Shown here in pieces: positions 1 to 43,693 of a stretch of 64,000 nucleotides of DNA. A program made the position numbers and the translations under genes. The DNA lies in contig JAAILG010001076.1 in NCBI GenBank assembly GCA_012026655.1, positions 1-64,000 on the forward strand, in the 5' to 3' direction. The notes beneath the pieces were generated by a model. That model made no database searches and was not told where the DNA came from. It worked only from the letters and a program-made list of their open reading frames with translations. The number at the start of each line of letters is the position of its first letter. The stretch's first letter is position 1. The DNA is from Hydrolagus affinis (taxonomy: Eukaryota).

Positions 1-236
1 TGTTTGACAAACTTTTTACTATTTATCCAGAAGTCATGTTGAACCATTTTGGTTAAATAGCAATTCAAGCCAAGTCATCTAAAAAATCTAACAATGAAGA
101 TAGCTCACCAGGCTGTCTGAAGATATTGACATTTCTTTTTCATAAATTGAGATGGTTATAAATAATAAGCTATTATACCGCAGTTATGTTCCTCAGAGTA
201 GAAATACACAATGTCAAAGTGAAATACATCACTCAC

Positions 237-348
237 CTATGTTCTCAGTTGACAGCACAATGTCTGAGCCAATGAAAGTCGAAACATCCGCCAGTTTTTC
301 GGCAACCAGGTCAAAGTTGTGAATTATAATATATGGTCCAGGTATTAC
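237..348 (-). CDS. ADGRD2-like exon 8 (VIPGPYIIIHNFDLVAEKLADVSTFIGSDIVLSTENI)
   Basis: ttgcag acceptor, gtgagt donor; resembles the GAIN A/B junction of adhesion GPCRs. Confidence 0.78.
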
Positions 349-3300
349 CTGCAAAGTGAACATGGAAGTGCAATTAATTTAGTTCAATATTATTGATCTG
401 TAAATCACTTTCAAGCTTCATGTTATTTTTGTTGTTGTTAAGAGTAGCAAAAGGTGTGCATTCAGTTAATAAGAAATGGAGGATAAGGAGAAATGTTGTT
501 TGAAAGGACTCTATAAATTCTAATTGAAGAAATACATGATTGAATGACAATTATGGAGCAATTTGCAATAAACATATAAGTGTATCCCATTTTATAATTT
601 CCAAAAAGATTTCAGGTTCGATTAACAAGTTTCGCTACAAGACTTAACCAAAATACTGTACACACTAAATTGACAAATAAAACATGCATCAAAATCAACA
701 TCAAACAACCACGTCTCCAACAAAATGCTGCAACTCGGTGGGTTACCTCTCTGTAAAAGTAACATGTATTCTCTGATGACTCCACCATCTATTTGGCAAG
801 CACTCTAGGGACTATTCACTTAAAGTCTTTAGGTTTACAATTTAAAGAAAACCGCATGAATTATACCACTGTCAAGCTTTCATTGTTTTGTAAATTGACA
901 TGAGAAAATTTATAATTTAATGATACATGGAAATGCATAATTCTTACCTCAGACACTTCAAGCCACTGCAAGGAACACTTGCTATCTATTATTTTGCTTG
1001 CCAATTGTGCATAGTTAGTAGCCAAGTTTAAAAGAGTTTCTGAATTATTCGCTTCAGTCTCAAAACCCAGATATGCGACATTTTCCAAAAGTCTTGTCAG
1101 GGCAAGCAGATCAACAGTGGTGAGGCTTACATCGCTCTCGTCCACAGTCTCCAGTAATAACTTGGTGATATTATTTGCTCTATCCACAGTTTGTGGGTAG
1201 TCACTGTTATTTAGAAGAAGATAGTCTGCAATCTAAAACATTCAACAAATTGCATGTTTATAAATCAACCCAGGCAAATATTTATCAAACAGTACAGAGA
1301 GACTATGGTAAGTAACTAATATTTATCTACATAACTAATTTATCTGCAAATACACTACACTCTACAGTAAATTCTGTGAAGCACTTTGAGACCTTTGAAC
1401 AACATGAAACATTACTTACTGAACCACCAGTAGGAATTTTCTTTACTTGAAGAAAAAATGGAGATGGGGGGATTGAGGAAAATATTTGCATATGTTCATA
1501 CACATCTGTAAAAGTTAGACAAAAAGAATGCTTTACACAAGTTACGCACAAATAACGTTAGAGATCACCTATAAAGATTTCGAGATACAAGGCAATCATT
1601 TGGAAAATTGTTTGAAAAAATGAATGCCAAATCTTCTGCTCTGTATTACACCACTAATTGTCATCCTCCTGCAGCGCTTAACATTAGATGTGAGGTTACT
1701 ATTTATATCAAAGATAAATATATTGACAATTTTGCGCAGGAACCCAATGATGATTGCTTTCGAATAAAATGCCTTTACAATAATAGTAAACAATTAAATT
1801 AACCTTTTTTATATCTGCAGAATGTTTCTTTGAGTTGTGAGCATATTTCAGAGATCCATGCACCATTCAATGGGTCAAATGTTATGCATTCCTCTTTAGC
1901 AATTGTTATATTGATATCAGATGAAATATTGTGAAAAGGGGTTACGCTTCCATCCACCCATGAAATGTAGAAAGGTTCATATGTTTTGAATCCAAGACCT
2001 GATATGAAATAAAGAAATGGTTACATACAGCAGTATAGAATGGATGAGGTACAAAGCAAAAGAGCTTCAGTAAAATTTTGTTGAATCCTTGACTGGTAAT
2101 TCTTACAGAAAATACATTTAAAAATACTCATGAATGTCTTTGGAACTATTATCTTCCATTGAAAGTGCTTCTTTGTGTGGATTTATACTATCGGTACAAC
2201 ATATTATTCCTACCACTAGGCAGCAGCAATCTTGATTCTTCCCACTGCTACTGACATTTGGCAATCCTGCACCATCAGAATTATTGACAGAAGAAATGCT
2301 GCACTGTACAGGATTACTCATTACTTGGCTCATTGCTTTTTACTGGCATTCATCCAGGCACTGGAAACATTATTTTGTAATCATGCCATTATTTCTCGCT
2401 GGGATCACACCTTGATTTTTTTTCATCATCTGAAGACATGAATAATATAATGTATTTTAATACCTGGGCATTTCTTCAGTCTACCCATCTATAGAAATTT
2501 CTCCCTAATTAACAGAAAATCCAAGAGTCACGTGTACAAGTTTTGTTTGAAATCAGACATGGTATGATTAATTTAGCAGTGGATCTATCCACATTAACCT
2601 ATCCAATTGATTCCCTGCATGAAACTTAATTCAGGGGATGAGGGTACTTAAAGCTTTGATTGATTCGGAGAGCAGAAGTCACTGCAGGTAATGAACATTT
2701 ATTTAGAGACTGGGGGAGTGGGGAGAGAGAAATGTTCTACCAAGGTCCAGACTTTCCCAATTTCCTTCCCATTTCAAAGCACATAGAATTTGACAAATTT
2801 TTAAATGCAGCCTTAATTTTAAAGTCAATTTTCTGGAAGTGCTTTTAAGAACTGTAGATTTCCAGCCCATTTCCCACTCTAAATTCACATTTAATTAGGT
2901 TAGTGCCACCATGCTTGCCAAATGACATCAAAAGGCAAAACTGAAACAAAGAAATGTGTGTTCCAATTACAAATGTCACTTGTTTCAAATTACCTTTACA
3001 CTGAGAAAATACTTCGTACACTTGAACTGTTGGCTCAACTTGAAGAGCAGAGATATTCCATTGAAAAAATAATCCAGTCTGAGGCACCGAACAATCTTCT
3101 GCTAAAGCTTGAATCTCGCTGGAATCCAGATCACGATTCCAGATGTGAAGCTGTGTAATATTCCCAATGAAGGATTCGTCTTGCTTGAAAGAGCCACCAA
3201 ATGTGTCCTGTTCTTGACCGACAATGAAAACCCCATCTTGTCCAATATCATCAGAAAGATAGAGATCGTCTCCAGAAGCAACTATAGATCCATCAACAGC

Positions 3301-6300
3301 AATAGCCCAGCTTCCGCCTCGACGTGTCCATTTCACGCAGATATGGTGCCATCTGCCATCGTTCTCAATGGTCTGAGAGTAAGGACTATGGACACCATGG
3401 ACAAGCAAAGCTAACTGTATCTGCGCCTCATGGACTATGTTGGCGCGGAGCTGGAATTCATTAATAAAAGATGGGATTGAATAGGAAAAGATAGTGGAAA
3501 CTCCAATATAGTTTGAATCGAATTGCAATTGAGCGCAAACTGTCACAGAGTGCATTTGAGGAAACTGTTTCAGAAGCCTGGCGAACTTAGTGTCGGTTCT
3601 GCCAGAAAATGCCAGAATCTGTGAACCAAAAGAACCTGAATAAACAAAACAGAAATATTATAGTTACTGAGCTGCCATTTTTTTGTATTCACTCCAACAG
3701 TCAGTCTACTCTCTTCATTAAAAATTCACACATGGTTCTCAACCTCACCTTTAACAAATTGAAGGGAGAAGGGTTGTTTGTGATACTCTGCTGGCAAAAA
3801 TTGACTGTCATGTTTGCTTACAAATAATTAGTCACTCCACTTCACAGTAAAATCTGTGAAGCATTTTGAGAAATCCTCCTGATATGAAAGGCAAGATACC
3901 AAATTAAGGATTATTCCTATTAGATTATTACAACACAACTTGCATTTTTGCAGCATCCATCACACAGGGCAACACCTCAGAGCACTTATTAAAAATAATA
4001 ATGTAGGACTGAAATAGAGGTAACCATTTTCATAAGATATTGAAGATTTTGCTATGTTCGGTTTTAGGGTTAGGGTTTGAACTATTGTCTATCATGGTAT
4101 CACTGGCTCAGTTGATGGCACTCTAGCTTTTCAGTTGGAAGGCTGTGAGTTCAAACCCAATTTAGGACTTTGAACTCGCAGTCTAGGCTGAGACACTACT
4201 AGGAGGGGGTGCTACATTGATGGAGGTGTCATCCTTTGCATGAGATGTCAAAGTTTTAATAACCCTTATATTTGGTACAGTATCTAACATGTTGGGAAGA
4301 TGCTTAAAGTGCTTCAGGGTATTCAGTGACTCTGTAGTGACCGGATTGATTTTTTGGGAAGCAACTACAAACAATTATGATTTGTCTAATTCTGGTGTGA
4401 GCAGTTTGAACCAGAAGTTTTCTCTCCAGACCTTATTTAAACATTAAGAGTTATATTCCATCAATGGTTAACTCTCTTCCACCAGCATCTGTCTCTATAG
4501 GTACCAATGCACTCACTGCATACAGATTAGAGGATGACTGTTTGTGACTACAGTAAAAATGATCTTTAGTTGAGTTACAATATTCTATGAAACTATTCTT
4601 AAATTGTAACCAAACAGCAAGCTACGGATAAGCAAGGGCTTCCTTATCCCTATAGGCTCTGGTTTTCCTGTATTACACCTGTGTCCTTAGAAGTAAATGA
4701 CAGACACAAATACAGTACTGTATTCAAGTTTGTGCCTGAAGCTTCACTAAGATACTAATTGAGTGTGCATCAGCATCTGTGAAAACCACCTACTCATCAT
4801 AGGAGACTACATTCGAACAGTACCTTAAATATGACCCAATATTACAATATAGTTCAGGTTGAATGTCCTTGGAAACATTAATTCTAATACTAAAAACACA
4901 GTGGCTGGCACCCTTATCTTGCAGCCCAAGTTATTGCCCTGCACATTGGGTGTGACACCACTGATATTTTATTTGGTCGTACACTTGTCTGACATCTGCG
5001 GAAACACATCACCAGACTTAAGAGTATCCAAACCAAACTGAGAATTCCATGCTGTTTGACAGCAACGAGCAAAGGTAGGATCAATTTAAACCAAACTTGG
5101 GAGTATTCACTAAACTCCTTCTAGGTTTTTTTTTAAATCAATAAGAAAAAAAACTACATCTGAAGCTTTTTATTATCACTGGAAAGGTTACTAGCGCTCG
5201 GAGGCTGGTGAGCAGAGAGTTCCAGCGATCAATTTAGTGCACCTTTGAGCACATCTGTATTCCCTGGTTTGGACAAAGAGATGCAATTAAGCTTTAGAGC
5301 CGCCCTCTGTCTGAACACAGTGCCTCACATTGTAGCAAACCAGCGCCGGTCACAGCAATATTCGCTGTGTTTTCAGCTATAAACGGATGAAAAATGCTCG
5401 ACAACGTGACAAGGCGCTATACCAAATACAAAGATTATTATATTACTATTATTTATTATAATAAAATTTTATTATAATAAAATGCAGTTGTGCTCAAAAG
5501 CGATGTGACACCCCCCCCCCACCCAGGACTTGAGGTCCAGTGGTGCGTACAAATCGATTTACCTTCATAGAATAAAACATATTTCGTGGATTACATATGA
5601 CATGAAATGCAAACTTACCAGATCCGGTTTTCTTCAGTTTAGCTCCTATCCAAAGTGGATGCTTCACACCCACAGGCTGCATCAAGCTCAGGAGCTTGAG
5701 GTTGTCTTCAGCGGTGAGGATTGTGGCCAAAAATCCAAACTTTTGCCTGCACAACCTCTCCGCCTCTGTCCATGTCACCTCACCAGGGACAAACTCATAA
5801 TAATAATTCCTGTGAATGAAACATCGCCCATCTCCTGATGTTAGTGGCGATTCTGGGTGGCGGAGGGAGGGAGGGAGAGAGAGAGGGGGGGGAAGAGAGA
5901 TAAAAGGTGAGGAAGAGATAAGGGGATGGGAGAGATCAGGAGGAAGAGATGGGTGGGTGGGGGGGAGGGGGGAAGGAGAGATAAGTGGGGGTATGGAAAG
6001 ATGGAGGGGAGGGAAAGTTGGAAGGGGTGGGGTGGGGAGGGGAGGGAGAGGAGGAAGGGGGGAAAAAAAGACATCACTTTTATATCAGTCAAATCGAGTT
6101 GGTCTAAATAATCTGATTTTCCCAGATAAATGCCACTCACCTGCTGGAATGCCACGAACGCAGGAAAACTGGGGAGGAAATAGAGATATTGCATTACATC
6201 TCTTTGTATGGAGGCAGGAGGCTGGAGAGACTCAGATCTCACAGAGAGCGGGGCCACTTACTAGGAAGCTGAAGAACAGAGGGATCTCCCGTCCCCGCAT
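237..6300 (-). CDS. Adhesion GPCR D2 (GPR144)-like gene, 5' portion (8 coding exons seen; GPS and 7TM exons lie beyond the left edge)
   Basis: Spliced product: signal peptide MRGREIPLFFSFLFSCVRG, first C-type lectin half (TWTEAERLCRQKFGFLA..LWIG), pentraxin domain (DGRWHHICVKW..VGQEQDTFGG..GNITQLHIW), second lectin half, then a helical region (..WLEVSE/VIPGP..). This follows the order and motifs I recall for human ADGRD2. All introns are GT-AG with consistent phases. Ortholog versus paralog is unresolved, so no symbol is given. Confidence 0.85.
948..1232 (-). CDS. ADGRD2-like exon 7, helical region (probable GAIN subdomain A)
   Basis: 285-nt phase 0-0 exon IADYLLL..LTTVDLLALTRLLENVA..WLEVSE; gtaag donor. 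Confidence 0.82.
1420..1505 (-). CDS. ADGRD2-like exon 6 (DVYEHMQIFSSIPPSPFFLQVKKIPTGGS)
   Basis: tttacag acceptor, gtaagt donor, phase 1 to 0. Confidence 0.72.
1804..1998 (-). CDS. ADGRD2-like exon 5, C-terminal half of C-type lectin domain
   Basis: LGFKTYEPFYISWVDGSVTPFHN..EECITFDPLNGAWISEICSQLKETFCRYKK; not in the ORF track; phase 1-1. Confidence 0.85.
2994..3635 (-). CDS. ADGRD2-like exon 4, complete pentraxin/LamG domain
   Basis: 642-nt phase 1-1 exon; SVTVC..WHHICVKW..GQEQD..FIGNITQLHIWNRDL motifs (overlaps ORF 2845..3555). Confidence 0.93.
4100..4255 (+). mobile_element. Old Deu-domain-like SINE remnant (5' part)
   Basis: Degenerate tRNA head, then tctaggctgagacact..gagggggtgctacattg..ggaggtgtcatcctttgcatgagatg, as I recall for SacSINE1/AmnSINE-type elements. 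Confidence 0.55.
5619..5834 (-). CDS. ADGRD2-like exon 3, N-terminal half of C-type lectin domain
   Basis: DGRCFIHRNYYYEFVPGEVTWTEAERLCRQKFGFLATI..LWIGAKLKKTGS; AG acceptor and GTAAG donor; phase 1-1. Confidence 0.88.
5855..6065 (+). repeat. Polypurine (G/A-rich) low-complexity tract
   Basis: Runs of GGG/GA; source of the spurious G/R-rich ORFs. Confidence 0.85.
6141..6168 (-). CDS. ADGRD2-like exon 2, 28-nt micro-exon (FSCVRGIPA+G)
   Basis: tttcctccccag acceptor and gtgagt donor; phase 0 to 1 joins exons 1 and 3 in frame. Confidence 0.7.
6262..6300 (-). CDS. ADGRD2-like exon 1 CDS (MRGREIPLFFSFL)
   Basis: ATG at 6300; GTAAGT donor right after CTA; first part of a hydrophobic signal peptide. 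Confidence 0.7.
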
Positions 6301-6900: not shown

Positions 6901-7000
6901 NNNNNNNNNNNNNNNNNNNNNNNNNNNNNNNNNNNNNNNNNNNNNNNNNNNNNNNNNNNNNNNNNNNNNNNNNNNNNNNNNNNNNNNNNNNNNNNNNNNN
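6901..7000. other. Assembly gap (100 N)
   Basis: N run; true length unknown. Confidence 1.
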
Positions 7001-7856
7001 CAACTGTTTCAAATCGTTCACAAAAATAACAACGACTCTAATAATGATGGTAAATGTAACGTAAAGAAAGAGGTGTTAACAGGCGGTCAATACCTACCAA
7101 TTGCTGAAGTGTTCCTGCTGCAGAACCAAGACTCTCCAAACCATAAGGCATTTCACTTCCCCAACCACACACTTGTCTTTGAAGCCAAGTGGAAATCAAG
7201 TCTGAAGGTGTGTGTGTGTGTATGTGTATATAGTGTTGTTCCACTCACTCACTCATTCCCTGCCTCTCTCTCTCTCTCTCTCGCTTTCTTATCTGAAACG
7301 ATCTGACCGACTCGCAGAATAAAGTTTGGATTCTCACAACTTGGTAGTTTCAACAACAAGAAAAAAAACTGCCTTGAAAACACAAAGCCTATTTCCCCCC
7401 CGACCCCCCACCACTCTGGTTTGTAGCTGCAGTTCACTGCAAAGTTAAGTTGCCTAGTTTCCTTCCCCACCAGCGAGATATAGTCCAGCGTTTTTTTTAA
7501 AAAAAGAAAAAAAACATAAAACGTCCCGATTTGTATTTTTATTGAAAGGGGAGAAATAAATCTTAAACCGATGACGCTTTTAAAAAAAAAGGCTTGTCGC
7601 CTCCTACTCAGACCACCAGACAAGTGAGCTGAGCTATCAGAGTGGTGACATTTAAATATTAACAAAGGCAAGTTGGAATGAGGCAGCAGCAATGTAACTC
7701 TGAGTGAGTTGTTAAAAAAAACTCGCAGCTTAGAAACCAAAACCGTTAAAAAAAAAGTCAGATTGAATTTATGCAGTGTCTACTCGAGGCCTCTCGCGTC
7801 TCTGCTTACTTTCAGTGAAAAGCAAATCTGCATTTATTCACGTTTTCCATAGACAG

Positions 7857-10933: not shown

Positions 10934-11340
10934 TCAAACCCACTTAACACCTCCGGGTGAAGAATTTTCTGACGATGGTCCCTGGAGTGTGTACACAACT
11001 TTCTTAATACCTCTATCACGCCAGCTACCGTGGTCAACATTTGCCCTGGTTGTCTTTATGTTTTCCTGCTTTTTCTTTTCAAAACTGTCAGCACGATTGG
11101 AAGATCTCCCCTTCTCACTCAGAAGTTGGTGGATTACGTCAAGGAGTGAGGTGCCCGCTGATTCTAGTGCACTGACCATTAGCTGAAGTTCTTTCATGTC
11201 CAATTTGTTTTCTTTGTGTGAGGACATGTTTACCTCATCAGAAAAGGGACAAAGTGCACTAAAGTTATCCGTTACATACTTAGCTGAGGAACAAATTATT
11301 TCTATGCACTTCTTCAGTTGCTGGTCAGCTACATTTTCAT
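10934..11340 (-). CDS. KIF14: KIF14 last coding exon (..[17 protein letters not shown])
   Basis: C-terminus resembles human ..RVYELHGSS..RIQWV; stop at 10934-10936. Confidence 0.9.
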
Positions 11341-14300
11341 CTGTGAATGAATGAGAAATAAGGAGATTATAATAAGTCATATATTCCAACATGTAAATTT
11401 ATACGCAGAACACAAATTTGATATGCAAGTGGTGATGTTCACTGGCAAAGATAGGTTTACATGACACACATTAGATGCCAACCACAGGCACATTTTCTGC
11501 CTAGTTGTAGGATCATTGTGGTTGCCAGGCAGCAGGGCTGTGTGCTGCTGCCTGTGGCCAACATTTCACAAATAAGTTCACTTAAAATTTTAAATTTAGA
11601 AATAAGGATAAAAAGCTTTTTTAAAAAAAAAATGCAATTGGTATGTAAGCATTTGGGAATATAGATAGACACAAGGCATCTTCAAATGTTAAAATGTGGT
11701 AGCACAATCTTGGATGAACTTCTCTGTAACAATTATAATAATATATCACTTTATTGAATTAAACATCTGTTTCTAATATTTTACCTCTCAGTACTGATAC
11801 CACCAGCTGGTTGATCTGTTGGGCATTTTCATTAAACTTGACTAATTTGGCTGCAACAGCAGAGACTTTGCTCAAGTTGATTGTTAAATCTTCAGACTCT
11901 TGTGTTAGAGTTCCCAGCATCTTTTAAAAGTTTTTAAAATAAACATTTTTTTAAAAAAGGCATCACACAAGGTATAGTACTTTGCAGCGATTACACAAAT
12001 TGAAATAAATGCACAAGACATTGGTTACTCTCTACATTTACTGCTCCTTTTCAGTAAATGTAGAGCTTTTATAAATAGCTTTTATTCAGTCACACACATT
12101 TACAATGGAAGAAATCAGTTCAGCTGAAAGTAACCCTTGATCACACTAAAATATTAGCCAGTCGAAACTCTTAAATTGGAATGGCTGACTAGCACAAATT
12201 CCTGTGCAAATTTCAAAGCATTCCAAACGTTTACAATTGTCTACTTTTGCCTCCTATATTAATAGAAGTTTGAAAAGGAGCGTTAAGCGGATGCAATCAC
12301 CACATTGGCAATCAGTGAAAGGAATTCCCCCCTCCCCCAATTGTTTACCCTTCTCTCCTCCTCCCCTCCTACACTGCTCTCTTTGAAGCATATTCAAACA
12401 CCAGTTTAAAATCTTGGAACCACAATGACATGCAATTAGAACGCTGTGGCCAGAAGTCCAAACTGATCCAAAGAACATTTGGATCAATTTAATTCAGATT
12501 TGTAAGTAAGCTTTAGTCTTGTCTTTCAAACAGATATTACAGTGTATTTACACTTAATATATTGCACACGGTTCAATTAAAAATGAAGTTATATGTACAT
12601 TTATTTTGAGGTAGAAAATACCATGCATTTGTTTGGTGATAAATGATAATGCATTTCATTTACTGCAACCGATCGTTTCAGCAAGAGACACTACAATACA
12701 ACACATGTGCCTTTCACGCCAATAGGATGTCTCAAACCACTTTTACAATATAACATATCAATCATTGGTTTCCACATTCTGTTCATCTTTAATATGACAA
12801 TGACTAGTTTTAATCTTGCTATTGAACATTTTTTGTTGGTCAGCTAAAACTCCAGACAATCAGCACTACCAGTTGGAAACCCAAACTGACTTGGTCAGTA
12901 CCAAGCGAAGAATGAAAAACTGCCTTTCTACTCAACTGAGAACTTAAGATTGTACAGATAATAAGTAAGAGGGAGATAGAAACAGTTAAACAAGAATGAA
13001 AGTGGAGGACAGTACAAAAACATATTGGTCTAAAAAAAGTTAGTACTGTACATTGGGACACAGCAGAGTTAATGGTATCATAACGACCACATTTCCATAA
13101 AGACACAAACCACAATGAAACATAGTACTGATGCTTTACAAATAATACACACAAAATAAGATTACCCTCAACAGAGCTAAAAGCATTACACTTAAGTTTG
13201 CAAGCAGCCACTTCACAGCTGATTAGACATGATCAAATTTTAAACTGAGGATTGGAGAACCATATGGAGAGGAACTTCCTAAAATGTATTTTTCAAAGTA
13301 ATGAGCAGAACAATCCATGGGAGAAAATGTGTGCAACTGGCCATATTCATAGGATTTTTCTTCCAATAGAAACATTTACAAACCAAATCGAGTACATTTC
13401 AAGATAGTTTCAGGCTAAGCACCAACACAAGCTGATATTACAAAAACAGGCAACATCCAAAACCAACTGCGCAGAGATTTTTTTTAAGCAGTCGTCTTAC
13501 TTTCAGACAAAAGTAGTCTTTCATAACTACTGGCAGTCAAGTGCTCCTTCGCCTCCTATATAAACATTTCATTTTGACAGCTTGCTTTGTAGGTTTTACA
13601 TAAGGTAACAAAGAGCTGGCCCAGTGAGGGGACACTTATTGGCTTTTCTATACTTACTTCAATAAATCATGTATTATAAAGGAAAGTGATCAGTGAGTTT
13701 CTTTGTTGAAAGGAAAAAAAACAGCTTTGTAGAATATTTAAAACAAGATGCTAATAACCTTGACTTTCTGTTTCCCACTCACCAAAGATTTTCTATTACT
13801 GTATAACCAAGCACTTAAAATCCCACAACGTTATCTGTACTAGCTTAACTTTCACTTAAATTAATTTGATTTAAGCACAATATAGGGATTTTAACCAAAA
13901 CTCAAACTACACAGAACCAGAAGAGCATTAACTGCTGCAACAGTCTTTCTCAACTCGCCCACTTTACAACACAAGGCTTCGGTCTGAAGTGATGATAAAT
14001 GGAGTCCATTCATATAAAGCAATGAATGAGGCATGAAACCAAGCAAATCTGAAAAAAAAACTAATTTGAAAACAATCCTTTCTATGGCTCAAATACAAAA
14101 GAACAGATTTCCTGTCACCTGCACTCATTTATTCTCCTGATTATTTGTGCTGAGTCAAGAAAGTGAATGTGGTGCTCAGAGATAACAGAATCTGCCTCAT
14201 CCTGATAAGATTTCTATTCCGTTCTGTCTGCAGAAAATGAGGCGTGCACAAAGTGATAACTTTATAGCTTCATAAATAAAAATCCCAATTATCCCATCAT

Positions 14301-17300
14301 TATTGGACATACTAATTCGGAGCTTTAGACTATTATAACGGGTAGGTTTAGTTTCATTTGTTAAACCAAATTGAAACATAAAAAGTCAACACAGGTAAAC
14401 CTCTATTTAGGACAGGGTTGCGTTCCTGAAAAACTGTATCTAGATGGAAACGTCCTAAATCAAAACGCGATTTCCCATGCGGTCCCATTATATAACCAGA
14501 GATGCGTTCTTTTCACAAAATTTTTGGACCTTAAACCCACTAAATAACACGCAAAACCATACAAGATAACACACAAATTAACACACATAGGCAAGAAGGG
14601 TACTTGAGGTAACTGTACGTATTGTACTTTAATACTGGCAAACTTTAATACTGGCAGTGTGACAGTGGCACTTACAGCTTCCCCACTCATGTTGATGTTG
14701 TGGAGCCCATAGCATCTTTTAAACCTTTGAAACCTCCCTCTGCTAACACTGAAAGATGGTGCTGTTGAGCCTTCTCCTTCCTGGTCATTTAACTCCCTAA
14801 ACAATGATTTTGCCTTCTCTTGGATAACCAGGGTGTTGAGTGGTATATTACGCTGGTTCTGATCCTCCATCCAAACACTCAGCATTCTTTCCATGTTTTC
14901 CATCACATCACTTCTATGTTTTGCTAATCTGCTTGCACCTGTAACACACCTTCAACTTGCCAGTATATTGTCCTTATTCTGTTTTATAGTAGCCACCATC
15001 GATCTAGCTAGCCCTAAAGCCCTCCCGATGTCCGTACCTTTTTCACCAGAACCGATGCGCTTTATCACCTACAATTTGGTATTTAAAGGGCTGACTTTGC
15101 GGGGTTTCTGGCCACTCGCGTTATTACCGCTGCTCATTTCACTTACTGCTCTTGGTAGAAACATGGTAGAGGCTGTAAATCGCTCGAAGTTGCTCGGGAA
15201 TGTTGGAAATTACTGTAATACTGACGTGGCGGGTGTCGCTTCAAAATCAGCTGGCTTTTAAACAATGACGTAGCGACATGCTATTGGCCAGTTCAAACGC
15301 TTGGATACTCTATATCAGGTGCGAGCGCGATTTACCCACGAATACACTATGGAGTGTGCGTATGGAGAAAAAGGACGTGCAAAATGCGACCGCAATATTC
15401 AAAATATGTACTGCGCATGCGCAAAAAAAAATTGTTCGTTAAAACAAATCCAAGTGTCCTATATCGACCAAAAGGTGTTAAAAAATTATGTTCCTTCAAT
15501 TGAAATGTCCTAAATAGAAGCATCCTAATTAGAAGTGTCCTAAATAGAAGCATTCTAAATAGAGGCTTAACTGTATAACAATCTTTTTTTCAATGATTAC
15601 TGCTAGATTATCATGAATGTTTCAAATATTAAAAAAAAGACAATAATAAAATATTTTTGTGCAATTCTTTAGTGCAATTTTAATTTTTTTTAATTCCTGT
15701 TCAAATTTCAGTGGCAAATATCCACTAAAAGAACATTATGCAAAAGAGATTATTCCAACAACCAAAGAATAAACAAAAGGGCATCATTAAAATTATAGCC
15801 ACAGCAAGCCACTATTGGGAGTGTCACAACAGTACAATTCTCATAACACTGCAGATGATGGAAATCTGAAACAAAAACACAAGTCGCTGGGAACACTCAG
15901 CTGGTCAGGCAGCATCTATGGAGAAAGGAAAGTGACTCAATGTTTCGGATCCACTTTCTGACTAAGTGCTGTGAATCCGAAACATTAACTCACTTTCCTT
16001 TCTCCACAGATGCTGCCTGATCTGCTGAGGTTCCCAGCAACTTCTGCTTTTGTTTCAATACAATTCTCACCAGATGTTCACCTTCTGCCAAAGTCACTTG
16101 AGATTTTATTTCCCTTCCTCAAGCGATGAGTACAAGTATCCCTCCCCAACCGTGGGGGATACGTTCCTGAAAACCTCTGTGGTTAGTAAAATTGCGGTTG
16201 GAAAATGCAGAGTCCCATGGGAATCATGGGGATAGGGGGAGTAAGAAACCAGTTTAGAAAGAGGTGTCGCAGCGAGCCAACCATGGATATGTGAAATTTG
16301 CGGTAGAAAAAACCGCGGTTGGGGCGGGGTACCTGTACAATTATATCCACAACTCAGATGAGAACAAGCAACTCAATACAGACCAACCCAGATCTTGTCT
16401 TGGAGGCTCTGTTTCATCTTGGCCTTACACATTAAGATCACATTAAAACAATTTTGAAGATACATTGATGGTTTGAAAATATCTCAAAATCCTAAAGGAA
16501 TTAAATTCAAACGGGGTCATCTTAAAAGTGGAATGATAAATTAGTTGGTGTCACACACATACACACACACACCCACAGATTCACGTCCCATACCTTATTA
16601 GATTCTGTGAGGTAGTTTTGAACAGATATCATTAGAACAATGTTTTTCTTCTTTAGTTCTTCAAAACACTGTCAATAAGGAAAATGGTCATTAGATACTC
16701 ATTATAAACACAGTTCTAACTAGCACATATGAATCACCAAATGACTTAATAGAGTAGAACTCAAATATAAGGCACTATGGTATCCGAAGGGTTTGCTTAT
16801 AATGCAATCTGGGTTTGGAACCTGATAATTATTTACAACAACAACATGCATTTGTATATCGCCTCTTCACATAGGGTAGTCCCAGTGTGCTTGATAAGAG
16901 CAATTTACCCTTAATAAGCTCCATCATTGAGTCAAAATTATAGCTGGTGCATGGTAGCCAAAATGGATTCCAAGTCATCACAGGCATCAACGTGATGGAA
17001 GTCAGCCATTCTAGCTTTCAGCCTGAGTTTTGAAATGTTGTTGGAGTCAGGCCATTGCAATGAATGCAGCTGTGTTTACCAACTATCATGTCCTATAATA
17101 GTACTGGTTAGGATTTTATGGATCCTCAACTACCAGGTTACAACAAGGCTCTACAGTATATAGAAACATAAATTATGCTTCTGGTTTATGTCTTCAATAA
17201 TGCATTGGTTTGGGATCAACATGTTTGCGATCAATAAAAAAAATGCCGACTGCTACTTAGATAACTGATCTTTGAAACCGATATACTTATAAATTGTAAT

Positions 17301-20300
17301 TAAATCCAACAAAGCATACCAAACATTCTTCACATAAAATCTAAGCCGCCTATTCTCGTACCCAACAAACACCACCACCTGGGCTTTAAATCTCATTTCA
17401 CACAAGGCTTCAGTTAGAATATTAATTTAGGTCTTACATTAAGATGACGATCACATTCAATGAAATGAGTTTCAACTACTGCAGGAGATATTATACTAAA
17501 AAATAGGCATGTATTAAGAATCAGCTTTGATGAATACAAAGCTCACAATGATGTAATGCAGTTATTTCAGAATTTCACATTTTTGAATGGATTGTAGGTA
17601 TTTCTTCACCTTCATAGTTTTTAAATTTCAAACAGAACCTTTTTCCGTCATAAAACACAATTTAACTTCTCCAAGATAGCAATAAGTTTTTTTTATATAA
17701 ACGTGCTGTAACTTTCTGAAGTTATTTTATTATACCATACAATGCAAATAAACAAGCATTCAAAGCCTTCAAGCCTATTACACTAGCCCTTTCATATTTA
17801 CCAAGTGAAAAAGGTCAATGTTGCCCAGCAACTCTGCATCTGCTTGAAGGGCATGCACACTACATGTATATGAGCATTACTTTTTTTGGTATCCACTCTA
17901 GCAGCTAGTAACACGAACAAAATTACTTGTCATTTTAGGTTTTAATTAACCTCGTAATGTAACCCATTTAAATGTGACAAACAACATTTCTCAGAATGAT
18001 ATCTATGTTTAACAGTGCAAAAGCTATCACTGCCTTGTAAATGTTTTTCCACACCACACAGAGAAAATAACAGAGCAGATTAAATGAATCCCGTAGCTCC
18101 AAGACGGGTAGAACATTTCCAAATGAGAAAAGAGGGCAGTGTGGAAATGACATTTTGAAAGTGATCTTAAGCCATGACTTTCCTGTTCATTCACATGATC
18201 CCATTCAATGAAGAGTTAATATATTTTTTTAATTTTATATACAAAGAATGCACAGCATGGAAATAGGCCGCTGGGCCCAAGCAGTCTGTGCGGTGTTTAT
18301 TACTTCACAGGAGTCGAAAGCTATTCCTTACTCCCTCACATCCCTCTATTTCCACTCTCATGTAATGATCTACAAGTTTCCTCTTAAATGTATCTGCACA
18401 AGTGGTGGCCAATGCATTGCCTGACTCCATTTACTGGCTTCCCACCACACAGAGGATACCATGCTCTGGAACTCCATCCCACAGTACCTCCACCTCACCC
18501 CCTCCCTTTCCATCACTGCTATAGCCTTCTTATAGTGTGGAGACAGAGCTGGACACAATACTCCAAATGTGACTAACCAAAGATTTTTTTAAAAAAAGAA
18601 ATAAACAGCACCTCCTCACTTTTATATTCCCTCTGGATGTAAAGCCCCAATCCCCGTTGGTTTTTTATAGCCTTATCTACTGATTTTTAGAGATTTGTGG
18701 ATCTGCTCTCTAAGGTTAAAAAAATTAAGAATCCATTTTCCTTTAAGTGACTACAAAGCATTAACAACTTTTTACAAAAATTCTGGAAGTCAAATTTTAA
18801 TATAATAAAATCAACCAAATGAATTACATTTTTGAAACACAAGCATACAAATTTGAAGGATCTGATTACCTCCATCTTTGCTGTAGTTCTTTGCAGCAGT
18901 TTCTGCTCTTGTTTTGCTCTTTTCAGGCTATTATCCAAGAGACTCTTCATTCCAGCTTTTCCTCCCTCGTAAAGAGAGGCCAATGCCGTCTTCTGGTGAA
19001 GATAATAAGATAGATTAGCTGAAGGAATCACAATCTAAACTCAACATTAATATATATATATAGATATGATCAATCAATACATTATTGATATTATATATGA
19101 AATAATAATCTTTGCATTTGATATAATAAATTTCACTGTAGGAGTTATCAAAACGCTTCACATCGATATTTTATGGGTGAACCAAGTTGCTAAAATCAGC
19201 AGATTTAAAAGATTGCATATTCAGCATTTTAAAAACCTACAGCTCCTTTAGAATGGAGAATACAATTTGCAGTGTATTATCCGTTCCACTTTTTTTCCAT
19301 TCTCTATTTGTTTCTTTGTAGTATCATAATACTGTAGTGCTATACCTTATAACTGAGAGAATCTTCTAAGCTCTGTTCTTCAAAATGCAACGCCAAGCCT
19401 ATGAATGTTGCCAGATGACCTACATGTTTCATAACTCTTTGAATAGTCTGGCTTATTTTGTTCTGAGCCTCCGTCACCATAGAAGAAATGTCTGAATCAC
19501 AGCCCTGGAAACACACACACACTGGTTTGCCAACAGCAAAATACTCAATTCATTAATTTAAATAGATTAAAGGCTGGTTGCTAGATCCTATTCAATTTCA
19601 AGAGTCAGTTGTACAGAGACTAAAATGTCAGAAGACAAAATATACATCATTCAGAAGTAACCCAATGCATACAAAGTACTGTAAGTACATTATAATCTTT
19701 ACTAATATTGAAGCAGATCAGTGTTCTTTAAATTGTGAGGTGAAAGTGAAGGGGAATTCATATATTTTAAATTTAAAAAGCAAATGAATGCAGCACCATG
19801 TAAAATGAACAAAAAGAATTCAAATATAATTTAAAACATCTAATGTGATATTGAGTTAGGAAGGCATCTTCAACAGTGAAAACTGGTTATTTAAAGTATA
19901 ATAATCCTTTCATATCTTGCTTTTCACGTAAAGTGTAGTTATTGTACTTTGTAGACAAAGATGGCAGCCAATTTGTGCACGGTAATGATCCACAAACAGT
20001 CATAAAATAAATGACAAATTGTATACAGGGGATTGTTAGCCAAGACATTGGGAGAAACTCCCTTTCTCAAATAATGCCATGGGATTTTGTAACGTTCACT
20101 TGAATAGGCAGGTCCTCAGGTTAACCTCTCATCTGAAAGTCGTTTTACACTTCTTCCATTTTCATACATTTCTAAAATCTTTATTGTTCTTAAAGTATGT
20201 TTTAATTTGGACCTAGTTAAGTCTCAGATAGATCCTGCTTACCTTTGTGCTCTCCCCAAGAATATTTTTAAAAATGTCTTTGTATTGTTCTATGAATGTT

Positions 20301-23300
20301 ATAATCAAGATACATAGATCCAAATCATAGACTTATAAAAGCTTTAGGATTTGGAAAAATTACAAACCTGTAATAGTAGCTGTAGGTTTCTACCCAATGT
20401 CTTCACTTCACCAAACAGCTCATCATCAGTGATTTCAGAACAAGTACCTTGTGGGAGATTATCGACCCACAGCTTCATTAGAATTGCTATTCTTTCAAGA
20501 TTTGCTGTAATTTTGATACAGTGAGACTGCATGACTGTATTATTGGTGAACACTACAAAGAAAGACACAAAAGTAAGACTGCATTGTTCAAATTCAGGGA
20601 ATTAAACATCTAAATGCGAAAGGAGATCATGAATGAGTTCTTCTAGTTATCTATTTCTTCCTTCAACCCAGAGATTTAGCTTAGCTTTAATTCATAGAAT
20701 AGCCAAACACACAACAGTCAACTATTGAAAGGATAGAGTAAAATAGTTTTTTTTTAAAAATTCACATGTATTTTGTTTTGATCCATTTCAATTATTCCTA
20801 AAATAGTTTTCCAGCTAAACTTGTCAACTCACAGTTTTCTTGACTTTCATTATCCAGCTGCTTATATGCATTGGAGATTGCATATGTTCCAGTCTGAATG
20901 GTCAGCAGGTCAGCAAGGAGCCGATCAGGAATGGTTTCCTGTGGTAAATGATTCCTTCCAAGATAGTCAACAGATGCACCTAGAAGTTCCTTACACACAG
21001 CGGGCAACAAGGACTCAGCACCAGTTGAGCATATACTCCGTGAAATGTTCAACAAATCTATTATGAAATGGAAGAAAAAAAAACACTAGCTTTATTTTCT
21101 GTTTCTCTTACCACATACCCCCAAGCACCCAAATTCACGAAAGGTTATTCCTGTTGCAGTAGTTAGAAGCTTTTTGTGATTGATCTCTGCAAATAGATTA
21201 CGTTTAGCATATTTCTATGCACAAAATTATTTTGTTCAAAGTAGCAGTTTTTGAGTAATGGCTATATTAAATCTCAGTGCAACATCTGATGATAAGCAGC
21301 GAGTTTTCTAGATGCAACATTTGACCCATTGATAGCTCACAGCAATGCTAATTTCCTGTTATGAAAGTTGTTAAAGTAGTAAAAATTTAATCAAACCTTC
21401 TGTGACTTGAAGTTTATAGAAAGAACCCGAGAACTATGCATTTTCTCCGCCTTATCACAGAGGAGCTTTTGTTACAGCCTTCATGGCTAGCCACAACCAG
21501 ACTGATAAATGTGACATCCACTAACAGTTGCTATGGTGGCAAAGAACTGTGGAATGTTCTTTTAAAAAGCACAAACTCGCAACCCCCAAAAATACTGGGC
21601 ACACAAAAAATATTTCCAAATAAAACACTGATAAAATAATAAATAAAATAAGTCAATTTAAGCATTCAATTAGCTTTTATCCTCATTTATTCCCTATATA
21701 GTATTAGTGTCAATATACTAGAAATATTTGTTTTTAATTCCTCACAATTCAAACAAATCTTACTTATCAGCACTCCAAGATGCTATATACAGTAACTGCT
21801 TAAATATTCCAAATCACAAAATCTGAAAAAAATCACACCAAATTAAAAAATAAAATGTAATTACAAATGTTATTAAAAATCAAACTGATCATAGATTAAC
21901 TGAATCCATTGGATATAAATCATGCAAAATATGGCAACCTGTAGGATGTGCAGATTGCAGATTCTGAAGAGGAGCATTTCGGATTTCTGATAAGCACCCT
22001 GACATCCGTTTGCTTCTGAAAAAACTTTTGCTCCTGAACAAGAAAATAACCATGTAATTATTTATATTTTATCAAACTTCTACTCTCAAGAAGCAAAACC
22101 CATCCAATAGTTATTAGCAAACAGGGACATTAAAAAAAATCCTAGTTTGGAACCTTAGTGGGCTCATTCATCAAATAATATCAGTTTTGAAATACGATGT
22201 TAAAATGTAGGTTTTTTTTAATAACAGGAATGTATGCAATGAGGAGAAGCCTGGGAATCACAGCGGGATGTGCTATAACATTTATAATGATCTGCAGGGC
22301 ATCCATTGAGTTATTGATGTAGGTTAATATTAACTAACTGAATGATGCACACTCCACCTTACTAAGCCAATCCAGAACCCTGGTGACTTGTTTGACCCTC
22401 AACTATCCTTCCAACCACACTGACATGACCAGGTCTGCCTTCCCCACCTCCGTAACATTGCCCAGTTCATCTCTGTAACATCTGTAACATCAGTCTCACA
22501 CCACAGGCCACCAAGACCCTCATACATTCATAACATCCAAGCTTGACTACGCAAACTCCTTGCTTTCAGCCTCCCCAAATCCTCCCTCAATTGGCTGTAA
22601 ATCATCCAGAACTATAAATCATCAAGCCCGTGTCCTCACCCTCATCAGAATCTATGACCCTATCACCACTATTGTAGCCCAACTCCACTGGCTAGCTGTC
22701 ACACAAAGGCCTGCTTCACGTCCCCACCTCGCCCGTCCCACCATTGGCAGGCAGGCTTTTAGCCAATCTGCCTCCACCCTCTAGAACTCTGTCCCACATT
22801 CCCTTCACCTCGCACCGAGGACGTATAAGGCGCTGTACAAATGCAATTTGCTGTTATTACCTACTGAAATTAATGTCGAATTTCTGTATCGGAGTATACC
22901 ATTTTAAACAATCTGCTAATTTACCAAAATACAAGATCAGGTTCAGATTAAACAATTGCTATTAACTAAACTAATACTGTATGCAGAATATTCTCTTTCA
23001 TTTACATGTTTATTTCAGCAATATTTATTGCTATTAAAGCACTAAAGTTATTTAAACCATTATTTTGAAGGTAACATTATATTACACTTGCAATGAAGTG
23101 TGTGCAGAACTTTGAAAACTACTTCTAGAGCTTCAGTAAAAATTTTTTAAAATGCAATGCCCGTGCTAATTCACCAGAATTCCATCATCAATTCAAAACT
23201 TACATAGAGGTGTTGACAATGTGCAAGGCAGAATTACAGCCAAATCCATTCCAGTTGCTTAGCAATACAACAAAACGAATGTAAAGCCAAATCTGACTTC

Positions 23301-26300
23301 CCCCAGTTTGTCTCCACATTGGAGCATACATTGTAAACCTTTCAGTAACAAGTATTAACTGGTAAAAAGGCACGACTCTGAAGGAGTCAATCTACTGTTT
23401 AAGCCGGCACATAGTCCAAGAGACCTGAGCTTTCTCTTAAGAATTTTTTTAATGTGAATTCATTACCATTTATGAATCATAAGTTAATAAAAATTAATTT
23501 TAAAAATTCAGTTAATAAAAAAACTTAAAATGAACAAGGTAAAAACTTGGAAAATCAGCTTGAACTAAAGCCAAATCATATTGCTAATACCAGAAAATAA
23601 GGTACTAGAAGGTACATCACCATCTTCCCAAATGTGTTTCATCCCGCCATCAACTACTCTTTCCCAGAAAATTCAAGTGAAATTAGCTTTGCATTACATG
23701 GAAACATTATCTACTCACAATCTTCTAGAAAAAGAACAAGATGTCAGGTCAGCTTCCCAATCATCATTGGGATCATAAAAAAGATCTTCATCCTTGGAAG
23801 ATGCACTTCCCTGTGGAGAGAATTTACTAAGAAAATTAATATGTGCTTGGACGAGTTTTCTCTTCTTCCCTAGACCCTCAGTGCTATCGCATTCTATGAA
23901 AAACGTAACAGAAAACAAGATATATATAAAATTGTTATTTTGTTGAAAGATTAATTTAACATAAAAAGACTATCACCTTTTGTTGAGTCTGAACTGGAAT
24001 TGGCAGATAGCAGCATTAAATATGCTAAGTATGTTACCGTTGGAAGCAATCATTTTACCTGGTGAAGTTCTCTCATAGCTGCCATTTTCCATTCAAATTT
24101 CTCCAAGCTCCAGTAAGTGCTTATGCCCAGCTTAGTGTTCCGAACCTGCACTTGAATCGGAGTTTGAGAGTTTCTTATATTTTCCTTATCAGGCTCTTCA
24201 TGTCTACACAAAATACAAATCAACATCAGTGTTGCATTTCTGATCAGTGAAGCACTGCTTATTAGACCATACCTATTACATCAAGTTTTAAGACAAACAC
24301 AAATGATAATCAGTTCTCATGAAAGTGTCACCTGCAAACTAAAATAGTAAAGTAAAATCCAACAACTATCCAGTGAACCATAAGCGAATGTGCAAAGCAA
24401 ATCCTACACTAATAATCGCCAAGTTTCAAAATAAATTACTTCAGGTAATTGGAAACTGAAAACTATTTCAGAGATTGAATGTCACTGTTCAAGACCAAGA
24501 CAGCTGGTCAGATTTATTTCTTGGAGATACTGACCGACTGAAGACTGTGCATTTCCTTAGATTTTTGCTTATGATGTTAGCCTCCTGGATCATCATTGAA
24601 AGTTTCATGGAGCTCCAGTCTGAACTATCTGAAATAAGTTTAGGATAAATAGTGTATTTATTATTCACAGCAAGTTAAAGTGACAAAGATGGGTTATTAA
24701 CACAAGTATAAACTTCAAATTAAAAGTGGATCATTCTCATCTGTGCTACATCTAAATGCTCCATCCACCTAACATACTCAAACCCAAATTATTTCAATTT
24801 GGGTATCCAATTTACGAATAGATTTTCAAGTAGTTGGGTGTCCAAGCAATGTCAGACAATGATGAAGCAGCATGTGAGGAACTGACTACTGTATGTGGAT
24901 TGAAGAACAATCACTAGAATGATAACATGAAGGGAGTCAGAAAGCAGTCAGAGATCTGTGATTGGAGTTTTCCAGGTTGCAATCACAAATATTTTTTCTG
25001 CTATTCACTGAAGAGAAAGAACTCTAAAACTATTCCAATGGTATCTCTTGCCTGTGGTTCCTGTTGTTCAATAAGAACTGTGAGTGACTGACCTTTGTGG
25101 TTACATTTCAGAGGCTACTACACCAGAAGATTATTCATCGCCTCAAGCTATGCAGCATCAAATTTGAGGTCAGAATGTACGCAAGATGAGTGACAAACCG
25201 CGTCTCTGGCATCTGCCAACAAAAGACTGAAGCAGTCCTTCCCTACAACTGTGAAACAGCAGCTTCCTCTGCTACACCGAGCCACACCTAGCAACCTTGC
25301 AAAGGAGAGGCAACTGTGATGAGGAAAAGATTAAACTATTGAATTGTTTCACCCCTCTTGTTTTTGAAGGACAGCTTACTTTTATAAGTGACACCGCTCT
25401 TAGTCTGTAGCCTTTTCTTTTGCTCTTTCTGTATTTTTTGTAAATCTTCTGCCATTTTTCTCTTTTCTGCTTCCAGTGCAGCAAGAAATTTAGTGTGATG
25501 TATATTATGATCCTCCAGAGCCTAATGGGAAAAAAGGTGAGTTCCAAAAGTGCTGTAAGTAGGATTTCTTTATAAATTACACAAAACAACAGCAACAACA
25601 ACTTGCATCTATAAACCACCCGTCACACAACAAAGTAAATGAAAAGAGATTTTCCACTTTGAATATACATGTACACAAATGAGGTAGAGGAAAGAGCAGC
25701 AGTGTAGTACTGAGCATTGTACTGTGTGTATAGTGGGAGGTAGATTATTTTTTTAAATTCGTTTTCCCCTCACACCAAAATCCTGATTTCAGTTTCCATC
25801 AGTATGAGAATGACTTTGGGAAATCAAGTTTGCTTTGAATGATTTCTAACTTTACATTACCTGTTTTGCGGCTAAAGTCTCCATCTGTAGACGTTTCCTA
25901 TTCAGTTCCACCTTTTGTTCAAGTTGCCTCTTTGCATCCTGGAGCTCCTCAATCTTGGAAACTGCCTTTTTAGTATTAAGTTCCTGCAACTTTTTCTTAC
26001 TGGCTTCCTTTTCCTGAACCACAAAAATAAATCTCAGCAATCATAATTCTATTTCTTGTAGTTTTACGTCATCTGAAGCATAATATGAGCCTACTTCCTT
26101 ATAACTGTTCCCAAGATATAACTAGTCTAAGAGTCTGCCATTTGTGACATCAGGTACGACAAACAAAAATGACTAAATTTCAGAACCATTTCAAAAGCAT
26201 CACTTTGATTGTTACACAAATACTGCAATATACTGCAATATCCATTTATAAGCACATGTCTTTTAAACCAAGAATTTAATCTAAGAGATAATGATATGTT

Positions 26301-38600: not shown

Positions 38601-38609
38601 CGCCGCCGT

Positions 38610-38690: not shown

Positions 38691-38714
38691 CATGCTCCGA
38701 CGCCCAGTTTGGGC

Positions 38715-43548: not shown

Positions 43549-43693
43549 ATGATGGGAGATACTGTGGACCCGGGCAGGGACGTGAAGAAGACCTTCATCG
43601 TCCCAGCCATTAAAGCCTTTGATCATTATGATTTCTCCAGAGCCAAGATCGCTTGCAGTCTCTCTTGGTTGGTGGCCAAGGCGTTTGGAACAG
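43549..43693 (+). CDS. CAMSAP2: CAMSAP2 coding exon 1
   Basis: MMGDTVDPGRDVKKTFIVPAIKAFDHYDFSRAKIACSLSWLVAKAFGT, near-identical to the CAMSAP2 N-terminus; G|gtagga donor. Confidence 0.95.

What the first reader, a model, noticed from the sequence alone, without database searches (positions are those of the whole stretch)
237..6300. ADGRD2-like receptor beside KIF14-CAMSAP2: candidate ohnolog lost in mammals
Knowledge: human ADGRD2 lies next to NR5A1 on 9q33, whereas KIF14 and CAMSAP2 lie next to NR5A2 on 1q32. These regions belong to the same 1q/9q paralogon, and I know of no ADGRD gene beside human KIF14. Seen: an apparently intact ADGRD2-like gene starts about 4.6 kb downstream of the KIF14 stop. 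Inference: it may be a whole-genome-duplication sister of ADGRD2, retained in fishes and possibly mis-annotated as ADGRD2.
Basis: partly seen in the sequence, partly recalled or inferred. Interest (0 to 1): 0.7.

Follow-up and report, generated by a model that had tools for sequence, protein, structure and literature searches.

The report
Hidden sister of ADGRD2 in fishes
This is an unbroken adhesion-receptor gene of a cartilaginous fish that databases call ADGRD2, but it is a separate sister gene, likely born in an early vertebrate genome duplication and likely lost on the way to land vertebrates, and its outer part is predicted to be a lectin-type domain with a pentraxin domain inserted into its middle.

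Summary
Confirmed and extended. The exons at 237-7151 (minus strand) start an unbroken 24-exon, 1138-aa adhesion GPCR that continues on contigs C910 and C6209. Its last exon lies tail-to-tail with NR5A2, mirroring ADGRD2 beside NR5A1 in mammals. The genome has a second ADGRD2-like gene. Trees give two clades, each holding cartilaginous and bony fishes. The second copy groups with tetrapod ADGRD2; the window gene does not (AU p 1.6e-46; 1.7e-6 under a mixture model). All 20 lobe-finned/tetrapod proteins retrieved fall in the other clade, so the loss likely predates mammals. A teleost-duplication origin is rejected; 1R versus 2R is unresolved. The gene is not wholly unseen: a 2021 supplement lists teleost 'ADGRD2b', though its text calls family D one-to-one. 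New here is the ectodomain: one C-type-lectin-like domain split by a frame-preserving pentraxin exon. AlphaFold closes the halves into a full fold (Z 17.9), and fish models lacking that exon match the whole Pfam lectin profile. Tetrapod ADGRD2 keeps a shortened version. Ligand, cleavage and G-protein are untested.

The parts
7098..7151 (-). Likely first coding exon (ATG at 7151, 18 codons), start of the signal-peptide region
   Evidence: GT donor, phase 0, modest likeness to the N-termini of shark proteins P0001 and P0180; weak hydrophobic core; inferred
6141..6168 (-). 28-nt exon 2, end of the signal-peptide region
   Evidence: AG/GT, phase 0 to 1; its translation matches the shark orthologs at this place
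5619..5852 (-). Exon 3: first half of a C-type-lectin-like domain (CTLD)
   Evidence: Pfam Lectin_C profile positions 3-47 of 107, 22.7 bits; phases 1-1
2994..3635 (-). Exon 4: whole pentraxin domain, 642 nt, phase 1-1, inserted between the two CTLD halves
   Evidence: Pfam Pentaxin E 8.6e-25; best PDB match neuronal pentraxin 1; exon bounds
1804..1998 (-). Exon 5: second half of the CTLD (long-loop region, three cysteines; no EPN, QPD or WND motif)
   Evidence: alignment; motif check; fold of the catshark ortholog
1420..1505 (-). Exon 6, linker to the GAIN region
   Evidence: tblastn with shark orthologs; splice sites
948..1232 (-). Exon 7, GAIN region, helical part
   Evidence: 69% identity to P0001 residues 415-510; GAIN Pfam hits at this region in relatives
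237..348 (-). Exon 8, GAIN region; exons 9-23 follow on G000:C910 and exon 24 on G000:C6209
   Evidence: one contig of run X1 (2094 bases, depth 34.2) covers both the end of C910 and window 1-1388
10934..36154 (-). KIF14, upstream neighbour on the same strand
   Evidence: identity of the last exon partly recalled
43552..43695 (+). First coding exon of a CAMSAP gene (CAMSAP2 by position)
   Evidence: Pfam CH_CAMSAP2_N E 1.8e-7

Best explanation
The gene is an unbroken adhesion GPCR that lies between NR5A2 and KIF14 and forms a clade separate from tetrapod ADGRD2; it is likely a whole-genome-duplication sister of ADGRD2, kept in cartilaginous and ray-finned fishes and likely lost early in lobe-finned vertebrates. 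Shown: gene structure, a second copy in the same genome, two clades, and the NR5A2 and KIF14 neighbours. Inferred: origin by genome duplication (from the NR5A1/NR5A2 mirror image and the recalled 1q/9q paralogon), and the loss (from absence in searches). How it likely works: a cell-surface receptor with signal peptide, a CTLD into which a pentraxin domain is inserted, a GAIN domain, seven transmembrane helices and a C-tail. The CTLD-pentraxin head likely binds a protein or matrix partner rather than a sugar through calcium, since the EPN/QPD and WND motifs are absent. The GAIN domain is predicted to cut itself at the H-T-T motif (residues 707-709), and the exposed TNFAVLLQF peptide would switch on the helix bundle as in other adhesion GPCRs. 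The pentraxin exon can be dropped without breaking the frame, which would give a plain-CTLD receptor.
For: Unbroken 1138-aa model. Second copy 44% identical in the pentraxin exon, on four GC-richer contigs. Tree of 42 rows, 1013 columns: window clade 16 rows, support 100; ADGRD2-proper clade 19 rows, support 99; both follow the species tree. Mixture tree of 14 rows: 100/100 and 97/98. AU tests reject window clade + lobe-finned ADGRD2 (p 1.6e-46; 1.7e-6), teleost copies as one clade (p 2.7e-4) and cartilaginous-fish copies as one clade (p 6e-10). NR5A2 last exon at C6209:28621-28854(+) (150 bits to NR5A2 against 95 to SF-1) faces exon 24 at 33709-33560(-). Sheep order NR6A1, NR5A1, ADGRD2, PSMB7 (PMC8327097, passages). 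Fused KIF14+receptor gene models in Aldrovandia (P0015) and Chinese sturgeon (P0211) point to the same tandem order in bony fishes. Of 162 proteins classed, 136 are nearer the window clade and none of them is named from a lobe-finned vertebrate (6 unnamed); all 20 lobe-finned/tetrapod rows are among the 26 others. Model of the catshark head: pLDDT 85.7; residues 11-358 align to tetranectin at Z 17.9, rmsd 2.3, 124 residues, and 81-291 to neuronal pentraxin at Z 28.3. Five of 5 tested fish proteins without the pentraxin block match Lectin_C from position 2-3 to 106-107 above the cut-off.
Against: The C910-C6209 join, hence the NR5A2 link, rests on exon order and phase, not on a bridging contig. 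The second copy could not be linked to NR5A1 or PSMB7. The protein searches are incomplete: no lungfish protein was seen at all, and no window-clade protein from gar, bichir or Callorhinchus, so absence in coelacanth and tetrapods is not proof of loss; one search listed 120 of 1016 hits. In the LG+G4 tree the ADGRD2-proper clade was drawn open at its base. The root depends on ADGRD1, which is only distantly related (PMC6900090, passages). The residue before the predicted cut is Thr, where the recalled consensus has Leu. No ligand, cleavage or signalling test exists here. The fold was predicted for the catshark ortholog, not the window protein.
Confidence: 0.85

Rival explanations
1. The window gene is the true ortholog of tetrapod ADGRD2 and moved next to KIF14.
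For: Databases name its closest relatives 'adhesion G-protein coupled receptor D2'; same domain order and exon phases.
Against: A second copy exists and groups with tetrapods; AU rejects; helix-bundle identity is 87-91% to sturgeon and shark b-copies but 53-63% to coelacanth, caecilian, cheetah and the shark a-copy.
Confidence: 0.02
2. The two copies come from a small-scale or lineage-specific duplication (teleost genome duplication, cartilaginous-fish duplication, or an old segmental copy of the NR5A-ADGRD2 pair) rather than 1R/2R.
For: PMC8584163 ascribes fish paralogs in general to the teleost duplication. Only one paralog pair (NR5A) was tested next to the gene here.
Against: Teleost-only and cartilaginous-only groupings are rejected. 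The wider 1q/9q pairs (CAMSAP1/2, NEK6/7, LHX2/9) are recalled, and NEK6 and LHX2 flank ADGRD2 in sheep.
Confidence: 0.08
3. The window gene belongs to the same lineage as the single lamprey/hagfish gene (split at 1R), so tetrapod ADGRD2 is the copy that jawless fishes lost. This is a variant of the best explanation on timing.
For: Lamprey and hagfish join the window clade at 99/98 and 82/91; helix-bundle identity to lamprey 79%; a jawed-only a+b clade is rejected under LG+G4, p 0.0175.
Against: Not rejected under the mixture model, p 0.12; unresolved; the outgroup branch is very long and the a-clade evolves fast.
Confidence: 0.5
4. The split CTLD is an ordinary calcium-dependent sugar-binding lectin domain.
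For: Whole CTLD fold with four core cysteines (62, 357, 372, 380 in the model) and the long-loop region kept.
Against: No EPN, QPD or WND in the second half; the region is poorly conserved in teleosts.
Confidence: 0.1

Closest known systems
ADGRD2 / GPR144 of tetrapods (and its fish ortholog, 'ADGRD2a')
   Same: Pentraxin, GAIN/GPS, 7tm_2 order; same phase 1-1 pentraxin exon in the second copy here; same H-[T/S]-T GPS motif; next to an NR5A gene.
   Different: Separate clade; about 35-42% overall identity; neighbour is NR5A2/KIF14; keeps the CTLD long-loop region, roughly 35 residues that the a-clade lacks; no CTLD among the 50 best fold matches of the cheetah model (inconclusive).
Teleost 'ADGRD2b' of Wittlake et al. 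2021 (PMC8584163, supplementary Table S1)
   Same: Zebrafish XP_021325374.1, listed there as a dr_ADGRD2b fragment, is P0173, in the cluster of the zebrafish window-clade protein. It is the same gene lineage.
   Different: The passages read list it for zebrafish and fugu only, call family D one-to-one between fish and mammals, and give no synteny, no cartilaginous fish and no lectin domain ('lectin' 0 times in the main text). Table 1 does mark a duplicated ADGRD2 branch 'Euteleostomi'.
Lamprey and hagfish ADGRD2 (P0203, P0207)
   Same: Split CTLD with inserted pentraxin and both halves present; 79% helix-bundle identity for lamprey.
   Different: One copy each seen here; whether ortholog or pre-duplication relative is unresolved.
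ADGRD1 / GPR133
   Same: Pentraxin/LamG-like domain, GAIN, 7TM; similar tethered peptide (lamprey D1).
   Different: No Lectin_C hit in lamprey D1; 40% helix-bundle identity; only distantly related (PMC6900090, passages). Its Gs/cAMP and androgen results (PMC12907768, passages) cannot simply be carried over.
C-type-lectin-like domains (tetranectin, CL-K1, NK receptors)
   Same: Predicted fold, Z 16-18 over about 120 residues; core cysteines.
   Different: Discontinuous, with a 210-residue pentraxin inserted after the beta-2 strand; calcium/sugar motifs absent.

Membership tests
Adhesion GPCR | Secretin-like seven-helix bundle | tested here: met
   Exons 14-21 on C910 encode it; the 75%-identical catshark protein has 7tm_2 at E 1.5e-55
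Adhesion GPCR | GAIN domain with GPS motif next to helix 1 | tested here: met
   Motif at residue 705 of the model; GPS Pfam in orthologs, GAIN Pfam in several
Adhesion GPCR | Self-cleavage and tethered-peptide activation | not testable with these tools
   H-x-T kept in nearly all relatives; x is Thr; needs a bench test
ADGRD2 subfamily (broad) | Groups with vertebrate ADGRD2 apart from ADGRD1 and other adhesion GPCRs | tested here: met
   Support 1.0 among 138 rows for the clade of its orthologs with ADGRD2; 100 with the window protein included
ADGRD2 subfamily (broad) | Pentraxin domain in the ectodomain | tested here: met
Ortholog of tetrapod ADGRD2 | Groups with coelacanth and tetrapod ADGRD2 | tested here: not met
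   AU p 1.6e-46, 1.7e-6
Ortholog of tetrapod ADGRD2 | Lies between NR5A1 and PSMB7 | tested here: not met
   Neighbours are NR5A2 and KIF14
1R/2R ohnolog pair | Duplication older than the shark-bony fish split | tested here: met
   Both clades hold cartilaginous and bony fishes
1R/2R ohnolog pair | Both copies in paralogous blocks | tested here: inconclusive
   Window copy beside NR5A2; tetrapod copy beside NR5A1; the second copy here is on short contigs and unlinked
C-type-lectin-like domain | Whole CTLD fold with core disulfide cysteines | tested here: met
   Predicted model of the catshark ortholog, Z 17.9, rmsd 2.3, 124 residues; full Pfam match when the pentraxin block is absent; cysteines
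Calcium-dependent C-type lectin (sugar-binding) | EPN or QPD plus WND motifs | tested here: not met
   None in the second half of the window protein's domain

The most novel reading that the evidence does not exclude
The ancestral vertebrate ADGRD2 head is a nested module, a C-type-lectin-like domain carrying a pentraxin domain on a single removable exon. This fish-retained sister gene uses that exon as a splice switch between two ligand-binding states, and several fish lineages (seahorses and most pipefishes, medaka) have fixed the pentraxin-less state. Tetrapods kept only the faster-evolving sister with a shortened lectin domain, now decaying in many mammals, while both genes have stayed tail-to-tail with an NR5A gene for some 500 million years under shared control.
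Probability: 0.3. Interest if true: 0.65.

Novelty: new member of a known kind. Interest (0 to 1): 0.45.

Why it matters
Adhesion-GPCR catalogues treat family D as two genes with one-to-one fish orthologs. A third, ancient member hides under the ADGRD2 name, so fish expression or knockout data labelled 'adgrd2' may refer to either gene. A zebrafish catalogue of these receptors lists only one, on chromosome 8. The window clade is the more conservative copy and so the better guide to what this orphan receptor first did. The nested lectin-pentraxin head is a concrete target for ligand fishing and structure work, and I found no description of it in the papers searched. Fish-retained duplicates lost in tetrapods are a common pattern, which caps the surprise.

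Tried and rejected
No RNA holder was listed for the stretch. Two RNA runs of another organism laid only on repeats, so expression and exon skipping are untested. Contig ends showed no direct overlap in the assembly itself. ZNF281: no long zinc-finger frame on C910 or C6209; its place is unknown and the C910-C6209 gap was not seen. PSMB7 next to the second copy: none of 24 proteasome matches lay on its contigs. The other NR5A last exon is on a 2-kb contig. The hydrophobic frame starting with ATG near 6195 was rejected as the start: it leaves the donor in phase 0 and meets a stop in exon 3. A first exon model had one donor mis-picked, corrected. The fold search with the cheetah ADGRD2 head listed no CTLD in its top 50; the pentraxin fills the list, so this is no evidence either way. 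Foldseek on the catshark model showed only pentraxin/LamG-type rows. Dating 1R versus 2R failed; PMC7269912 passages did not give the chromosome assignments needed. Earlier scan findings: none. Literature searches without a paper on this paralogy: 0 papers; 0 papers; most subscription journals are not covered.
Full report
Observation. The window is contig C1076:1-64000 of a fragmented 1.11-Gb genome. Its left end holds eight minus-strand exons of an adhesion GPCR. A search with the catshark protein P0001 found the rest on C910 and C6209. The 24 exons give 3417 nt, 1138 residues, GT-AG at all 23 introns and a single terminal stop. One contig of run X1 (2094 bases, depth 34.2) covers the last 709 bases of C910 and window 1-1388, so these contigs abut; X1 may be the source organism or a close relative and is not independent evidence of anything else. 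The C910-C6209 join rests on exon order and phase. The start is likely at 7151, not near 6300: a 28-nt exon 2 matches shark orthologs, and an 18-codon exon 1 resembles two of them, though its hydrophobic core is weak. In the trees the gene is sister to all shark and ray copies, which suggests a chimaera-like fish.

Neighbours. KIF14 lies upstream on the same strand and a CAMSAP gene beyond it. C6209 carries a nuclear-receptor last exon on the plus strand, 4.7 kb from exon 24. It scores 150 bits against NR5A2 and 95 against SF-1/NR5A1. A second NR5A exon, 69% identical, lies elsewhere. The order is therefore NR5A2 > < receptor < KIF14, CAMSAP >. In sheep the order is NR6A1, NR5A1, ADGRD2, PSMB7, NEK6, LHX2 (PMC8327097, passages). 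That human NR5A2, ZNF281, KIF14, DDX59 and CAMSAP2 lie together on 1q32 with no such receptor, and that 1q and 9q are paralogous, is recalled, not tested. Two database proteins are KIF14 pieces fused to this receptor, from Aldrovandia (P0015) and Chinese sturgeon (P0211); such run-on models point to the same tandem order in bony fishes.

Second copy. The pentraxin exon found a 44%-identical match on C20702. Further exons lie on C35733, C47705 and C20064; that they form one gene is inferred. These contigs are 47-49% GC against 37-38% for the window locus, and the contig of the second NR5A exon is 52% GC. This fits, but does not show, linkage of the second copy to NR5A1.

Phylogeny. I chose 40 of about 370 stored proteins plus the two genome copies. 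The mixture-model quick tree (1013 columns) has two clades. Clade b (16 rows, support 100) holds the window gene, sharks, rays, sterlet, bowfin and teleosts including a zebrafish protein named ADGRD2. Clade a (19 rows, support 99) holds the second copy, other shark and ray proteins, bichir, other teleost proteins, coelacanth, amphibians, reptiles, a bird and mammals. With 26 of these rows under LG+G4, clade b is 100/100 and clade a is drawn open at its base; with 14 rows under the mixture model both are supported. AU tests reject b + lobe-finned ADGRD2 (p 1.6e-46; 1.7e-6), teleost copies together (2.7e-4) and cartilaginous copies together (6e-10). Lamprey and hagfish tend to join b; a jawed-only clade is rejected under LG+G4 (0.0175) but not under the mixture model (0.12), so 1R versus 2R stays open. 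Ten named species gave one protein near each clade: Pristiophorus japonicus, Chiloscyllium plagiosum, Hemiscyllium ocellatum, Heptranchias perlo, Mobula birostris, Carcharodon carcharias, Narcine bancroftii, Acipenser sinensis, Anoplopoma fimbria and Osmerus eperlanus. In four of them (Pristiophorus, Heptranchias, Mobula, Anoplopoma) both carry the identical name.

Loss. Of 162 proteins from the three homolog searches, 136 score nearer clade b and 26 nearer clade a. All 20 lobe-finned or tetrapod rows are in a; no b row is named from that group, 6 are unnamed. A slowly evolving coelacanth b protein should have ranked near sturgeon and did not appear. Against this, no lungfish protein was seen at all, nor b proteins of gar, bichir or Callorhinchus, so the searches miss things. 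The loss is likely early but is not proven.

Ectodomain. Pfam matches only the first half of Lectin_C on exon 3. The second half follows the pentraxin, on exon 5. An AlphaFold2 model of the catshark head (366 residues, 83-row alignment, pLDDT 85.7) aligns residues 81-291 to neuronal pentraxin 1 (Z 28.3) and residues 11-358 to whole CTLDs such as tetranectin (Z 17.9, rmsd 2.3, 124 residues). The pentraxin is one 642-nt phase 1-1 exon. Nineteen of the 162 proteins lack the pentraxin; 12 of those 19 keep both CTLD halves by pattern, and 5 of 5 tested match the whole Lectin_C profile above cut-off. Rainbowfish isoforms X2 and X3 differ essentially by this block. These are database gene models; I saw no reads. 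Lamprey keeps both halves with the long loop and hagfish largely so; clade a lacks about 35 residues of the long-loop region. The cheetah model still builds strands and helices on both sides of the pentraxin, but no CTLD reached its top 50 matches. The window domain has the four core cysteines and no EPN, QPD or WND.

Mechanism. Shown: domain order and motifs. Inferred from general adhesion-GPCR knowledge: surface delivery, self-cleavage at H707-T708/T709, and activation by the TNFAVLLQF peptide when the head is bound or pulled. The motif is nearly invariant in both clades, but the residue before the cut departs from the recalled consensus. The G protein is unknown; ADGRD1 raises cAMP (PMC12907768, passages) but is only distantly related (PMC6900090, passages). 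The head likely binds protein. The helix bundle is 79% identical to lamprey and 53-63% to clade a, so b is the conservative copy.

What is known. PMC8584163 (passages, part 2 of 8 of the text, supplement places 1-50 of 66) lists dr_ADGRD2b and tr_ADGRD2a/b; the zebrafish accession is in clade b. Its text calls family D one-to-one and ascribes fish paralogs to the teleost duplication, while its Table 1 marks a duplicated 'Euteleostomi' branch; its tree figures I saw only as label lists. PMC4335454 (passages; supplement 1, part 1 of 2) lists one zebrafish gpr144, on chromosome 8, testis-enriched; that it is the a copy is inferred. PMC10687090, PMC13197933 (first 300,000 characters searched) and PMC11039983 (passages) mention ADGRD2's pentraxin, its mouse pseudogene and low human expression, and no lectin domain in the passages returned. 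Searches for the paralogy found no paper; subscription journals are largely outside the library.

Verdict. This is a distinct, ancient ADGRD2 paralog, glimpsed before as teleost 'ADGRD2b' but, in what I read, not recognised as shared by all jawed-fish groups or tied to NR5A2. The nested lectin-pentraxin head adds real structural interest. Interest 0.45.

Noticed in passing
window 36230-43503: No DEAD-box motif frame and no long frame between the KIF14 and CAMSAP starts, where human has DDX59 (recalled). DDX59 seems absent or moved here.
   Followed up: partly
G000:C910 and C6209 (L049-L060): No ZNF281-like long zinc-finger frame between NR5A2 and the receptor or in its introns on these contigs, although human ZNF281 lies between NR5A2 and KIF14 (recalled). 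It could lie in the unseen gap.
   Followed up: partly
P0117, P0125, P0127, P0128, P0130, P0133, P0136 versus P0052, P0131: Seven seahorse/pipefish models lack the pentraxin block while Nerophis and Dunckerocampus keep it; medaka models lack it too. This may be lineage-level loss of the exon.
   Followed up: partly
L011:917-1549; L061-L064: The second copy (ADGRD2 proper) is fast-evolving (branch 0.74-0.79) and GC-rich (GC3 0.84 against 0.39), with changed residues in otherwise conserved helix stretches.
   Followed up: partly
P0215 (bowfin): The bowfin b copy has a long branch and a decayed pentraxin with no Pfam hit; no gar or bichir b copy appeared, hinting at decay in early ray-finned lineages.
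   Followed up: no
window 5852-6060 and 6901-7000: A long pyrimidine tract precedes exon 3, and a 100-N scaffold gap lies in intron 1.
   Followed up: no
G000:C910:40933-69286: Introns 9-18 are short (0.2-2 kb) but introns 19-23 are 6-28 kb; these large introns lie in the part of the gene nearest NR5A2 and might hold shared enhancers.
   Followed up: no
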